Shown here: positions 13,977 through 15,604 of the stretch, piece by piece
How positions within the stretch are numbered: position 1 is the first letter of the stretch
How the letters are laid out: each line of letters opens with the position of its first letter
IMG/VR virus record: IMGVR_UViG_2698536580_000003
Span: 1 to 55,905 of that record
Length of the DNA: 55,905 nucleotides
From: a virus
Lineage: Duplodnaviria; Heunggongvirae; Uroviricota; Caudoviricetes
Direction: 5' to 3' (one strand)
Notes under the pieces: model-generated
What the model was told of the DNA's origin: nothing
The model's database searches: none
Seen by the model: only the letters and a program-made list of their open reading frames with translations
Translations under genes and position numbers: made by a program

Positions 13977-15191
13977 TCACCCGCATTTTCCGAACTCACC
14001 ATGCACCACATTTCCGCCATGCTCGAGCGAATCCATATAGTCGGCATACCACTGGAGCATCTCCCGGCGACCATCCAGATATTGCGCATGGTTGTATGTG
14101 CCACGAATTGAGTTTTTATCGACGTGTGCGAGCTGTGTCTCTATCCACGCGGTGTTATAGCCCTGCTCATGCAAAATGGTGCTCATGGTGTGCCGGAATC
14201 CATGACCAGTAACCTTTCCGTTATAGCCGATGCGTTTAAATACTTGGTTTATGCTAGCCTCGCTCATTGTTTTCCTTGGATCATTACGGCCGGGAAACAT
14301 AAGCGGATAATTGCCAGTTAATTCTTTAATCTGCCCAATAAGCGAAAGAGCCTGCTTAGACAAAGGCACCACATGAGGGCGACGCATTTTCATCCGTGAA
14401 GCAGGTATCTCCCAGATAGCCTTGTTGAGATCGATTTCATCCCATAATGCACCGCGCAGTTCGCCAGTCCGCAAACCGGTGATAATCAGTAGACGAGCCG
14501 CCATAACAACCAATGCACTTCCTGAGTAACTGGACAATGCCTTGAAAAAATCAGGTAATTCTTTGGCTGTGAGGAAAGGATAATGATTAGATTCATGACC
14601 TTGCATCGCGCTGGTGAGATCCGGTGCAGGGTTATACTCAGCACGTCCAGTGACAATTGCATAGCGGAAAACTTCCCCGCATCGCTGCCTCACTTTTTTG
14701 GCTTTTTCGGTAGCACCGCGCCCCTCGATGCGCCGCAGCACATTCAGCAGTTCAAGTGGTTTGATTTCGGCGATTGGTTTTTTGCCAATGTAAGGGAACA
14801 CATCTTTGTTGAAGGCTTCGAGGATGTCTGAAGCATAACCAGCAGACCATTTTTTTAATTTGCTGCTGTGCCACTCAAGGGCAATATCTTTGAAGGTGTT
14901 GTTTAACTGCGTTTCCCGGGCAATCTTTTCCTCTCGTTTCGCTTCCATCGGATCGATACCCCCAGCGATCCCCCTTTTAGCTTCTTCACGTTTTGCACGA
15001 GCATCAGCCAAGGTAACTTCAGGATACACACCTAGTGCTAACAGCTTCTCTTTACCAGCTACACGATATTTGAAGCGCCAATATTTTCCTCCACTAGGTT
15101 TTACCAAGAGATACAGACCACCACCATCAGCCAGCTTGTAAGCCTTCTCTTTTGGCTTGGCAGTGTCTATTTGACGGGCATTGAGTTTCAC
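13977..15191 (-). CDS. P4-type tyrosine integrase
   Basis: 404 aa; N-terminal LTDTAIRNAKP-like arm-binding segment (LNARQIDTAKPKEKAYKLADGGGLYLLV), C-terminal catalytic region with HGFRHT...WIETQLAH; start adjacent to att repeat. Confidence 0.9.
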   Translation of the reverse strand: MKLNARQIDTAKPKEKAYKLADGGGLYLLVKPSGGKYWRFKYRVAGKEKLLALGVYPEVTLADARAKREEAKRGIAGGIDPMEAKREEKIARETQLNNTFKDIALEWHSSKLKKWSAGYASDILEAFNKDVFPYIGKKPIAEIKPLELLNVLRRIEGRGATEKAKKVRQRCGEVFRYAIVTGRAEYNPAPDLTSAMQGHESNHYPFLTAKELPDFFKALSSYSGSALVVMAARLLIITGLRTGELRGALWDEIDLNKAIWEIPASRMKMRRPHVVPLSKQALSLIGQIKELTGNYPLMFPGRNDPRKTMSEASINQVFKRIGYNGKVTGHGFRHTMSTILHEQGYNTAWIETQLAHVDKNSIRGTYNHAQYLDGRREMLQWYADYMDSLEHGGNVVHGEFGKCG

Positions 15192-15355
15192 TTGGGGGTA
15201 CCTCCACTAAACCGAACAGCAAATACCCCCAAAAGTACCCCCAATTGACTGTAGATTTTGGGGTACTTAAGTAGACATCAAAAGACTAAAAGGGGCGCTA
15301 ACATGCGGATTATAAGAGTTTTTTAAATACTTGAGTAGACTTGGGGAGACGTTAG

Positions 15356-15403
15356 AATGGTGCCGATAATAGGAGTCGAACCTACGACCTTCGCATTACG
15401 AAT
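15356..15403. repeat. att direct repeat: 48-bp copy of the 3' portion of tRNA-Thr (boundary between satellite and prophage)
   Basis: aatggtgccgataataggagtcgaacctacgaccttcgcattacgaat is identical to 54460-54507. Confidence 0.85.
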
Positions 15404-15604
15404 TATAAGAATCCGCTTGTAATTCAAAGGATTATCCCATCAACACTGCGCTCACACGTCCCACCACATCAAAACATGTAAAGCCTTGCAAGCCATTGTG
15501 AGGCCTTATGTGTCTCAGTTTTGTCTCATCAGACATAGCAAGTATCGATCAATTGAGACTTGGATGATAGACTTCATGCCTTTCAGAGCTCATTGATTAA
15601 ATAA

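What the first reader, a model, noticed from the sequence alone, without database searches (positions are those of the whole stretch)
13977..15604. Tandem occupancy of thrW: P4/PICI-like satellite directly abutting a complete SfV-like prophage
A 48-bp copy of the tRNA-Thr 3' end (15356-15403) separates a P4-type integrase (start at 15191) from the gtrA end of a complete prophage whose own integrase sits next to the intact tRNA at 54462-54537. Two different integrases therefore appear to have used the same att core, creating a possible satellite-helper pair in cis. The satellite has primase, an iteron origin and AlpA but no capsid genes.
Basis: partly seen in the sequence, partly recalled or inferred. 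Interest (0 to 1): 0.6.

Follow-up and report, generated by a model that had tools for sequence, protein, structure and literature searches.

The report
Phage satellite and SfI prophage stacked at thrW
Two unrelated mobile elements, a helper-dependent phage satellite and a complete SfI-type serotype-converting prophage, sit one behind the other in the same threonine tRNA gene; this stacking is common in E. coli/Shigella and nothing here links the two functionally.

Summary
A 48-bp copy of the thrW 3' end (15356-15403) is identical to 54460-54507. It separates an intact P4-type integrase gene (13977-15191, minus strand) from gtrA of a 39-kb prophage whose own integrase abuts the intact tRNA.

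The left element is a PICI-type satellite. Its integrase is 97% identical, and its AlpA 83% identical, to those of EcCIMP1, an experimentally verified thrW satellite of E. coli MP1. It also has a D5-type primase-helicase, 11 iterons, and no structural or lysis genes. The right element is an SfI-type member of the SfV family: GtrI is 100% identical, and the canonical 46-bp attP core and cos site are present.

The satellite's att core (10-19 bp at the tRNA tip) is nested inside the phage's 46-bp core. Each integration therefore regenerates a site for the other element.

The same satellite occurs alone at thrW in other E. coli strains at 99.4% identity. The tandem junction occurs in 168 of 5426 complete E. 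coli genomes, roughly what chance co-occupancy would give.

There is no support for a helper pair: no shared cos, DNA or packaging genes. The third att copy cannot be checked, because the source contig ends in an IS1 that truncates the satellite's gapS1 gene. Verdict: a known kind of arrangement, low interest.

The parts
1..294 (+). Right part of an IS1 (InsB C-terminus at 13-279; the terminal inverted repeat ends at 294). It interrupts the satellite's gapS1 gene. The source contig ends about 158 nt to the left of the window.
   Evidence: Pfam DDE_Tnp_IS1, E=6e-48. Sequence read. Similarity to the solo satellite starts exactly at 295. Contig PGKH01000021.1 ends inside the IS1.
295..855 (-). 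5' fragment of gapS1, an anti-phage GapS1-family cargo gene of the satellite. Residues 1-187 of 532 remain; the gene is truncated by IS1.
   Evidence: tblastn of the APEC E123 GapS1: residues 1-187 match at 99.5%. The full-length relative matches NCBIfam NF047931 antiphage_GapS1 at 6e-132.
2964..3509 (-). Satellite accessory protein with an N-terminal HTH domain. It shows a weak resemblance to the N-terminus of small terminase subunits. Role unknown.
   Evidence: phrog_57 (terminase small subunit), E=2e-6, residues 5-48 only. HTH_17 at 2.5e-4. No similarity to the prophage TerS and no PDB hit.
5961..6787 (-). PerC-family regulator (5961-6278) and ProQ/FinO-family protein (6245-6787).
   Evidence: Pfam PerC 1.8e-31 and ProQ 2.5e-23.
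6790..7135 (.). Iteron cluster, the putative satellite replication origin: 11 copies of AACNGTCTACC in both orientations, immediately 3' of the primase-helicase gene.
   Evidence: There are 12 matches in the window, 11 of them here, against 1.9 expected; 0 of 100 shuffles reach 12.
7159..8964 (-). Satellite primase-helicase (D5_N + DUF5906 + Pox_D5 C-terminus; P4-family primase C-terminal domain).
   Evidence: (phrog_864 DNA primase, 1e-156).
10250..11108 (.). Regulatory region: Icd-like cell-division inhibitor (10250-10471, minus strand) and the divergent YlcI/YnfO-family gene (10803-11108, plus strand).
   Evidence: NCBIfam phage_ICD_like 3e-20 and YlcI_YnfO_N 7e-18. Gene boundaries taken from the solo copy.
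11781..12629 (-). AntA/AntB-type antirepressor.
   Evidence: Pfam AntA 8e-24; phrog_5817 1e-37.
12708..12905 (-). AlpA, the expected master activator of the satellite cycle. It is 83% identical to the EcCIMP1 AlpA, which is required for excision there.
   Evidence: Pfam Phage_AlpA 2.4e-19. BLASTP against EcCIMP1 AlpA. PMC11773190.
13977..15191 (-). Satellite integrase (P4-type architecture), intact. It is 97% identical to IntS_1 of EcCIMP1 and 100% identical to the copy in E. coli APEC E123.
   Evidence: 1427/1427 nt identical, including the arm.
15192..15355 (.). Int-proximal arm of the satellite att. It holds all four GTACCCCCAA-like motifs of the window (15192-15266), which are candidate arm-type integrase binding sites.
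   Evidence: The same doublet ATACCCCCAAAAGTACCCCCA lies at the distal ends of the solo satellite (L001 7250-7272) and of EcCIMP1 (L004 9780-9800).
15356..15403 (.). 48-bp hybrid att. It is the phage attR core (canonical 46-bp SfI/SfII/SfV/SfX/P22 core, 15358-15403) and at the same time contains the satellite's tRNA-proximal att (AATGGTGCCGATAATAGGA, 15356-15374; 10-bp perfect core GATAATAGGA at 15365-15374).
   Evidence: The 46-nt core as printed in PMC3636060. The EcCIMP1 core TCCTATTATC in PMC11773190. Distal copies in L001 and L004.
15404..15604 (.). Prophage right arm (attP arm between the core and gtrA).
   Evidence: Phage records SfIV/SfI/SfII/SfV align from window 15404 onward. The first ~122 nt recur next to the satellite-type int in 168 E. 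coli genomes.
15605..18407 (+). O-antigen glucosylation operon: gtrA (15605-15967), gtrB (15964-16884) and gtrI (16887-18407).
   Evidence: Pfam GtrA_DPMS_TM and Glycos_transf_2. GtrC is 100% identical to GtrI of phage SfI.
18408..53056 (-). Body of the SfV-family prophage. It holds Mu-like contractile tail genes, HK97-like head genes, terL (34408-36141), terS (36138-36641), cos (36683-36692), lysis genes, a low-GC moron (39829-41582), Q, O/P, cII, and the cI gene (48774-49400, plus strand).
   Evidence: Nucleotide identity of 96-98% to SfIV, SfI, SfII and SfV over 54-78% of the query. PHROG and Pfam assignments. cos TGCCCGCCCC, as reported for SfI in PMC3636060.
53057..54447 (+). Prophage excisionase-like HTH gene (about 53057-53407) and integrase (53284-54447). 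The integrase ends 14 nt before the intact tRNA.
   Evidence: Pfam HTH_17 and Phage_integrase 3e-48. Sequence read.
54460..54537 (-). Intact thrW, tRNA-Thr(CGT), at 54462-54537. Its 3' 46 nt plus 2 flanking nt (54460-54507) form the tRNA-proximal att copy. proA follows at 54652-55905.
   Evidence: ARAGORN, Rfam tRNA 71.8 bits, and the annotation of relatives.

Best explanation
Two autonomous integrative elements have inserted one after the other into the 3' end of thrW.

Element 1 (window 295-15355, and onward to the left beyond an IS1) is a PICI-type phage satellite of the EcCIMP1 family. Its tyrosine integrase recombines a short core at the very tip of the tRNA gene (AATGGTGC(C)GATAATAGGA).

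Element 2 (15404-54459) is a complete SfI-type serotype-converting prophage of the SfV family. Its unrelated integrase uses the classical 46-bp core, which spans the same tip and extends further into the tRNA.

Both elements carry a copy of the tRNA end, so each insertion restores an intact tRNA and an intact target. The site can therefore be used again, and elements pile up.

The 48-bp copy at 15356-15403 is a shared junction. Its left edge is set by the satellite's homology boundary and its right edge by the phage's.

Inferred, not shown:
- The phage most likely arrived second, because it lies on the tRNA-proximal side.
- Each element should be able to excise without disturbing the other.
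- The adjacency is a by-product of shared target choice, not a functional coupling.
For: - The repeat is exact and matches the published cores. It contains the 46-nt SfI/SfII/SfV/SfX/P22 attP core (PMC3636060) and the EcCIMP1 core TCCTATTATC (= GATAATAGGA on this strand), which occurs only twice in the window.
- The satellite integrase is 97% identical to EcCIMP1 IntS_1, and AlpA is 83% identical. In EcCIMP1 both genes are experimentally required for helper-induced excision from thrW (PMC11773190).
- The same satellite sits alone, directly on thrW, in E. coli APEC E123. Identity is 99.4% over 15.1 kb, and the int gene plus arm are 1427/1427 nt identical. There its distal att, aatggtgc-gataatagga, lies next to the native flank.
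- All satellite genes are intact except the IS1-cut gapS1 and one 66-aa ORF.
- The prophage equals free-living phages: 96-98% nucleotide identity to SfIV/SfI/SfII/SfV, GtrI 100% identical, the SfI cos site, and all modules present.
- The two integrases are unrelated.
- Different combinations of the two element types occur elsewhere. An EcCIMP1-type PICI plus an SfV-like prophage is found in strain ET565, and this satellite type plus a lambda-like prophage in EC20.
- Counts in 5426 complete E. coli genomes: 168 tandem junctions, 863 satellite-type int genes directly at thrW, and 1214 SfV-type int genes directly at thrW.
- Experimental precedent exists for stacking at thrW. SfI integrated at the tRNA-proximal attL of an SfX lysogen (PMC3306764).
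Against: - The distal (third) att copy of the satellite is not in the window. It cannot be recovered, because the source contig ends in the IS1. Present-day mobility of this copy is therefore unproven.
- The order of arrival cannot be read from the sequence. Phage-first and satellite-first histories give the same final junctions.
- No excision or transfer data exist for this strain.
- The co-occupancy counts are crude. Sampling is clonal, and some arrays hold three elements, so the 168 tandem cases are not a clean subset of the 1214.
Confidence: 0.85

Rival explanations
1. The SfI-type prophage is the satellite's helper, and the adjacency matters. Prophage induction would switch on satellite alpA, and the satellite would excise, replicate from its iteron origin and be packaged in SfI capsids.
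For: - The satellite is intact up to the IS1 and has the PICI core set of int, alpA and pri-rep/ori.
- E. coli PICIs are induced by lambdoid phages (PMC6092414), and the SfV family has a lambdoid early region (PMC3636060).
- A resident inducible prophage with an S24-type cI is present in the same cell.
Against: - There is no shared DNA beyond att, and the only protein similarity is a weak PerC-like match.
- The phage packages from a cos site (TGCCCGCCCC, 36683-36692), and the satellite has no copy of it, nor of lambda cosN.
- No Rpp, TerS or capsid-remodelling gene was recognised.
- The only verified helper of a relative is the P22-like phage Kapi1, and only 2 of 21 EcCIMP1-carrying strains had a Kapi1-like prophage.
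- The tandem junction is not enriched: 168 observed, against about 230 expected from 19% x 22% of 5426 genomes.
- Adjacency itself offers no known mechanistic advantage for a cos phage.
Confidence: 0.1
2. This copy of the satellite is stranded. The IS1 at the left end marks an IS-mediated deletion that removed the rest of gapS1 and the distal att, so the element is now a fixed genomic island that merely neighbours the prophage.
For: - IS1 cuts gapS1 at residue 187 of 532, and the assembly breaks there.
- No third GATAATAGGA core lies in the window.
- The host is probably S. flexneri (gtrI 100% identical). In that species the region beyond the thrW phages is reported as an int remnant plus IS600/IS629 followed by yaiC (PMC3306764), which implies large IS-associated rearrangements at this locus.
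Against: - A simple IS1 insertion would look identical from inside the window.
- Every other satellite gene, and the integrase with its arm, is undamaged and 99-100% identical to mobile-looking copies. This argues for a recent event, not for long decay.
Confidence: 0.4
3. The region is one composite, degraded prophage with two integrase genes, and not two elements.
For: The two parts are contiguous, and only two att copies are visible in the window.
Against: - Each part occurs on its own elsewhere. The satellite is found alone at thrW, and the phage family exists as isolated virions.
- The internal att copy sits exactly at the boundary between the two similarity blocks: satellite matches end at 15403 and phage matches start at 15404.
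- The partners are exchanged in other genomes.
- The prophage is complete, not degraded.
Confidence: 0.02

Closest known systems
EcCIMP1, the phage-inducible chromosomal island of E. coli MP1 (helper phage vB_EcoP_Kapi1; ISME J 2025, PMC11773190)
   Same: - Same locus: thrW between proA and the yag/pao genes.
- Integrase 97% identical, AlpA 83% identical, and the same att core (TCCTATTATC).
- Same gene order: int - alpA - antA - DUF4222/Icd-like - primase - accessory genes including PerC.
- No structural or lysis genes.
- It also lies in a tandem array, next to a vat island with an integrase remnant.
   Different: - The replication module differs: a D5_N/DUF5906 helicase-primase of 601 aa here, against a TOPRIM-DUF927 protein of 918 aa there.
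- There are no P22-like ejection or DUF2824 genes here.
- The cargo differs: GapS1, a lipoprotein and ProQ/FinO here.
- The neighbour here is a complete prophage, not a decayed island.
- The helper of this variant is unknown.
Serotype-converting phages SfI / SfIV / SfII / SfV of Shigella flexneri
   Same: - 46-bp attP core in thrW, with gtrABC next to attP, followed by int-xis at the other end.
- cos site TGCCCGCCCC, HK97-like head and contractile tail.
- 96-98% nucleotide identity over most of the genome, and GtrI 100% identical to SfI.
   Different: - Mosaic differences in the early and nin regions; coverage by any one phage is 54-78%.
- The two tRNA genes reported downstream of Q in SfI are absent.
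- A low-GC DUF6575/DUF7226 moron lies between the lysis genes and Q.
Tandem lysogeny at thrW (SfI integrated beside SfX; BMC Microbiol 2011, PMC3306764)
   Same: Two elements are stacked in thrW with an att copy between them, and the newcomer took the tRNA-proximal position.
   Different: In that case both elements were phages with the same integrase type and an identical 46-bp core. Here the partners have unrelated integrases and nested cores of different length.
Satellite P4 and P4-like elements
   Same: The integrase has the P4-type domain architecture. An AlpA/Vis-like regulator, a P4-family primase C-terminal domain and an Icd-like gene are present, and integration is at a tRNA 3' end.
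   Different: No psu, delta or sid capsid-size genes were detected, no CI/C4-type RNA was found, and the gene order differs. It should not be filed as P4-like.

Membership tests
PICI (Gram-negative type, criteria of Fillol-Salom et al. 2018, PMC6092414) | Conserved organisation with an integrase, a master regulator (AlpA) and a replication module (pri-rep plus ori). | tested here: met
   The int gene is at 13977-15191, alpA at 12708-12905 and the primase-helicase at 7159-8964, with 11 iterons immediately 3' of it.
PICI (Gram-negative type, criteria of Fillol-Salom et al. 2018, PMC6092414) | Absence of phage structural and lysis genes. | tested here: met
   Pfam, PHROG and NCBIfam scans of the ORFs in 214-15191 gave no capsid, tail, portal, large terminase, holin or endolysin hit. 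The only packaging-related hit is a weak one to the N-terminal HTH of small terminase subunits.
PICI (Gram-negative type, criteria of Fillol-Salom et al. 2018, PMC6092414) | Size of about 12-15 kb. | tested here: inconclusive
   At least 15.1 kb is visible here before the IS1. The solo copy in APEC E123 spans 16.9 kb between its att copies (L001 7171-24102), which is slightly above the quoted range. EcCIMP1 is 20 kb.
PICI (Gram-negative type, criteria of Fillol-Salom et al. 2018, PMC6092414) | Unique att site that is never occupied by prophages. | tested here: not met
   The satellite core lies inside the 46-bp core used by SfV/SfI/P22-type prophages, and a prophage occupies the site here. Among 5426 E. 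coli genomes, 1214 have such a phage integrase at thrW and 168 have both element types stacked. This criterion was a screening heuristic, and the verified PICI EcCIMP1 fails it too.
PICI (Gram-negative type, criteria of Fillol-Salom et al. 2018, PMC6092414) | Helper-phage-dependent induction, packaging in helper virions, and interference with the helper. | not testable with these tools
   This has been shown only for the relative EcCIMP1 with phage Kapi1. No Rpp, TerS or capsid-morphogenesis gene and no cos copy was found here.
P4-like satellites | Capsid-size and late-control genes sid, delta and psu, together with int, alpA/vis and alpha primase. | tested here: not met
   No Psu, Sid or Delta family hit was obtained in Pfam, PHROGs or NCBIfam for any ORF scanned. 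Only the integrase architecture, AlpA and the primase C-terminal domain are shared.
SfV-family serotype-converting prophage | 46-bp attP core identical to the thrW 3' end, with gtrABC on one side and int-xis on the other. | tested here: met
   Window 15358-15403 and 54462-54507 are the reverse complement of the published core ATTCGTAATGCGAAGGTCGTAGGTTCGACTCCTATTATCGGCACCA. The gtrA/B/I genes are at 15605-18407 and xis/int at 53057-54447.
SfV-family serotype-converting prophage | cos packaging with the SfV/SfI cohesive-end sequence, an HK97-like head and a contractile tail. | tested here: met
   TGCCCGCCCC lies at 36683-36692, just upstream of terS. TerS, TerL, portal, major head, sheath and tape-measure proteins were identified. 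Nucleotide identity to SfIV/SfI/SfII/SfV is 96-98%.

The most novel reading that the evidence does not exclude
The resident SfI-type prophage is the natural helper of this EcCIMP1-family satellite, and sharing one att site is an adaptation. The nested cores would let satellite and helper travel, integrate and be induced as a linked pair, which would make serotype-converting Shigella phages vehicles for a defence- and regulator-carrying island.
Probability: 0.08. Interest if true: 0.5.

Novelty: new member of a known kind. Interest (0 to 1): 0.2.

Why it matters
The main value is for annotation. The block should be read as two elements plus an IS1, not as one 54-kb prophage. The P4-type integrase next to gtrA, noted as a 'putative integrase' in Shigella papers, belongs to a nearly intact PICI-type satellite.

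The locus also gives a clear example of how nested att cores let unrelated elements re-use one tRNA gene and build arrays. Arrays of two or three elements occur in at least 3% of complete E. coli genomes.

It also shows that the early PICI rule 'att sites never occupied by prophages' does not hold at thrW.

If the satellite were mobilised by SfI-type phages, it could spread PerC/ProQ-type regulators and anti-phage cargo among Shigella. Nothing here indicates that.

Tried and rejected
- Third att copy. There are no further GATAATAGGA or 45-nt att matches in the window. An exact-protein look-up of the IS1-fused GapS1 fragment found the source contig, but it ends inside the IS1, so this was a dead end.
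- Shared packaging signal. blastn-short and blastn of satellite against prophage gave only chance-level 13-16-mers. The SfI cos decamer and lambda cosN are absent from the satellite.
- Shared proteins. tblastx gave a single weak PerC-like match.
- Packaging hijack genes. The HTH protein at 2964-3509 has no similarity to the prophage TerS and no PDB relative such as Rpp or TerS. There were no PADLOC hits for the accessory genes.
- Regulatory RNAs of the P4/P1 type near the Icd-like gene. Rfam gave nothing at gathering threshold, nor at E<=1 for 10200-15700.
- My own earlier idea that the distal att flank in E. coli is a relic of an SfV-like integrase end. I dropped it after the K-12 sequence showed that the flank is the native sequence downstream of thrW, which the phage attP arm resembles over about 16 nt.
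- Order of arrival. I worked through both histories, and they give identical junctions, so the sequence cannot decide.
- Genome contigs and metagenome scans were not used. GTDB keeps one genome per species, so the source strain would not be there.
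Full report
**1. Observation**

ARAGORN and Rfam find one tRNA gene in the window, tRNA-Thr(CGT), at 54462-54537 on the minus strand. proA lies beyond it, so this is the thrW locus.

A 45-nt probe from the tRNA 3' end matches exactly twice, at 15358-15402 and 54462-54506. None of 100 shuffles gave even one match. Reading the flanks extends the identity to 48 bp: 15356-15403 equals 54460-54507. This is 46 nt of tRNA plus two A residues downstream.

**2. The two integrases**

The ORF at 13977-15191 (minus strand, 404 aa) carries Arm-DNA-bind_3, Phage_int_M and Phage_integrase domains, which is the P4-type architecture. 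Its start codon lies 165 nt from the att copy.

The ORF at 53284-54447 (plus strand) has only the catalytic Phage_integrase domain. It ends 14 nt from the intact tRNA. The two proteins are unrelated (BLASTP E=0.015).

**3. The left element**

Reading away from the att copy, all on the minus strand unless noted, the genes are:
- int;
- a 243-aa protein with no family hit;
- AlpA (12708-12905);
- an AntA antirepressor;
- a divergent YlcI/YnfO gene (plus strand);
- an Icd-like gene;
- five small phage-type ORFs, including a DUF4222;
- a 601-aa D5_N/DUF5906/Pox_D5 primase-helicase (7159-8964);
- ProQ/FinO and PerC;
- a lipoprotein, small membrane and HTH proteins;
- the first 187 codons of a GapS1 anti-phage gene.

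Directly 3' of the primase gene lie 11 copies of AACNGTCTACC within 340 bp, in both orientations. The whole window would be expected to hold 1.9.

No structural, large-terminase or lysis gene was found, and there is no psu, sid or delta. gapS1 is cut at window 294/295 by an IS1.

**4. The left element is a member of a characterised family**

A literature search found EcCIMP1, a PICI of E. coli MP1. It is integrated in tRNA-Thr between proA and yagU. It excises and circularises only when the P22-like helper phage Kapi1 is induced. It requires its integrase and alpA, and it is transduced by Kapi1. Its proposed att core is TCCTATTATC (PMC11773190).

The window's integrase is 97% identical to EcCIMP1 IntS_1, and its AlpA is 83% identical. 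TCCTATTATC is GATAATAGGA on the window's plus strand. It occurs exactly twice in the window, inside the two att copies.

The replication and accessory modules differ from EcCIMP1. That element has a TOPRIM-DUF927 primase and P22-like ejection proteins. The window element is therefore a different variant with the same integration and regulation module.

**5. The same satellite exists on its own**

In E. coli APEC E123, window 295-15403 aligns in one piece at 99.4% identity. The integrase sits directly beside the intact thrW. The integrase gene and its arm are identical at all 1427 nt. Every gene is intact in the window apart from gapS1 and one 66-aa ORF.

In APEC E123 the distal end of the element reads ...ggggtaacttattgattta|aatggtgc-gataatagga|acaaaac... 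and lies next to the yagP remnant. EcCIMP1 has the same distal copy with the same missing C.

The satellite's direct repeat is therefore at most 19 bp, with 10 bp perfect, at the extreme tip of the tRNA gene.

A doublet, ATACCCCCAAAAGTACCCCCA, lies just inside both ends of these elements. In the window, all four GTACCCCCAA-like motifs fall in 15192-15266, between int and att. I read them as arm-type integrase sites. This is an inference.

**6. The right element**

Window 15404-54459 (39.1 kb) matches phages SfIV, SfI, SfII and SfV at 96-98% identity over 54-78% of its length. The phage records start exactly at window 15404.

It encodes:
- gtrA, gtrB and a GtrC that is 100% identical to GtrI of SfI;
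- contractile-tail and HK97-type head genes, TerL and TerS;
- the SfI cohesive-end sequence TGCCCGCCCC just upstream of terS, at 36683-36692;
- lysis genes, Q, O-type replication genes, cII, and an S24-type cI;
- an HTH excisionase and the integrase.

The published 46-nt attP core of SfI/SfII/SfV/SfX/P22 is the exact reverse complement of 15358-15403. The prophage looks complete. The gtrI gene suggests that the host is a serotype 1 Shigella flexneri.

**7. How the junction arises**

The phage core (46 bp) contains the satellite core (10-19 bp). Each element brings its own copy of the tRNA tip, so each insertion rebuilds an intact tRNA and leaves a partial copy at its far end.

The 48-bp copy at 15356-15403 is bounded on the left by satellite sequence (gacgttag|aatggtgcc...). 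Native chromosome or phage arm would read ttgattta there. On the right it is bounded by phage sequence (...cgaat|tataagaat). It is therefore both the phage's attR core and the satellite's tRNA-proximal att.

I worked through both possible histories:
- satellite first, then phage into the rebuilt thrW;
- phage first, then satellite into the phage's distal copy.

They give identical junctions, so the order cannot be read from the sequence. The one experimental precedent is SfI infecting an SfX lysogen, where the newcomer took the tRNA-proximal attL (PMC3306764). That would make the phage the later arrival here.

**8. Is the pairing special?**

Among 5426 complete E. coli genomes:
- 863 have an EcCIMP1-type integrase directly on thrW;
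- 1214 have an SfV-type integrase directly on thrW;
- 168 have the tandem junction, meaning the P4-type int start, the 48-bp att and at least ~122 nt of the SfV-type arm;
- 7 continue from that junction into gtrAB.

With about 19% and 22% occupancy, chance alone predicts roughly 230 co-occupied genomes. I see no enrichment.

The comparison is rough. Sampling is clonal. Some arrays hold a third element between the phage and thrW, as in strain EC20, where this satellite type is followed by a lambda-like prophage and then an IS/CP4-6-like island.

Partners are interchangeable. Strain ET565 has an EcCIMP1-type PICI next to an SfV-like gtr prophage.

**9. Tests of the helper hypothesis**

- Satellite and prophage share no DNA beyond att; the best matches are 13-16-mers at chance level.
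- They share only one weak PerC-like protein match.
- The satellite has no copy of the SfI cos decamer or of lambda cosN.
- Its only packaging-like feature is an HTH protein (2964-3509) with a weak N-terminal small-terminase resemblance. This protein is unrelated to the prophage TerS and to anything in the PDB.
- The known E. coli PICI packaging strategy, Rpp binding a lambda-type TerS, needs a cos site on the island (PMC6739421).

None of this excludes induction by the SfI-type phage, whose early region is lambdoid. It gives no positive support either, and a cos phage could not be expected to package this island as it stands.

**10. What cannot be decided**

It is not in the window. The source contig (PGKH01000021.1 of GCA_003009545.1) stops inside the IS1, about 158 nt beyond the window.

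A simple IS1 insertion and an IS1-mediated deletion look the same from here. In S. flexneri the region beyond the thrW phages is described as an integrase remnant plus IS600/IS629 and then yaiC. A deletion is therefore a real possibility, which I put near 40%.

**11. Comparison with what is known, and verdict**

Each component is known:
- PICIs at thrW (EcCIMP1);
- SfV-family phages at thrW;
- tandem lysogeny at thrW;
- the practical problem of tandem satellites and neighbouring integrase-bearing elements, which the SatelliteFinder authors describe (PMC10085698).

The element is PICI-type by gene content but fails one of the original screening criteria, 'att sites never occupied by prophages' (PMC6092414). 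So does EcCIMP1. It is not P4-like.

What is new is modest. This is an uncharacterised replication and cargo variant of the EcCIMP1 family, caught next to a complete SfI-type prophage, with a clear view of nested att cores. I rate it a new member of a known kind, with low interest.

Noticed in passing
window 1-855: An IS1 truncates the satellite's GapS1-family anti-phage gene after codon 187 of 532. The draft assembly breaks inside this IS1. Loss of a defence gene in a cell that then carries a complete prophage may or may not be connected.
   Followed up: partly
window 39829-41582: A low-GC (34-36%) two-gene moron lies between the lysis genes and Q of the prophage. It encodes a 429-aa DUF6575 + DUF7226 protein and a 155-aa protein with no family hit. 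It sits where SfI is reported to carry tRNA-Asn and tRNA-Thr genes, which are absent here. It could be an accessory or defence cargo.
   Followed up: partly
window 16887-18407: The type-specific glucosyltransferase is 100% identical to GtrI of phage SfI, although the rest of the prophage is a mosaic closest to SfIV, SfI, SfII and SfV in different segments. This implies a serotype 1 Shigella flexneri host.
   Followed up: yes
L001 7171-7188 and L004 9702-9719 (distal att copies of the solo satellite and of EcCIMP1): Both distal copies read aatggtgc-gataatagga, one C short of the tRNA sequence, while the tRNA-proximal copies have CC. This suggests that the satellite attP carries the single-C version and that strand exchange occurs to the left of that position. 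That sits uneasily with the 10-bp core proposed in the EcCIMP1 paper.
   Followed up: partly
window 54444-54459, compared with L001 7155-7170 and L002 (K-12) near 7265-7250: The 16 nt between the phage integrase stop codon and the att core (gtaacttattgattta) are nearly identical to the native chromosomal sequence downstream of thrW. On an unoccupied site, phage-chromosome homology would therefore run to about 64 bp rather than 46.
   Followed up: partly
L005/L007 (E. coli EC20, NZ_CP084900.1 3711206-3775000): The same satellite type is followed by a lambda-like siphovirus prophage that carries an SfV-type int module and a restriction-modification cargo in place of gtr. An IS1/IS21 cluster and a CP4-6-like toxin-antitoxin island follow, making a three-element array at thrW.
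   Followed up: partly
window 6084-6233 and 46149-46298: The satellite PerC and a prophage nin-region ORF (46104-46598) share a PerC-like segment (38% identity over 50 aa by tblastx). Both elements therefore carry PerC-family regulators.
   Followed up: no
window 13162-13893: A 243-aa protein encoded between int and alpA has no hit in Pfam, PHROGs, NCBIfam or PADLOC. It is conserved at 100% identity in the solo satellite copy.
   Followed up: partly
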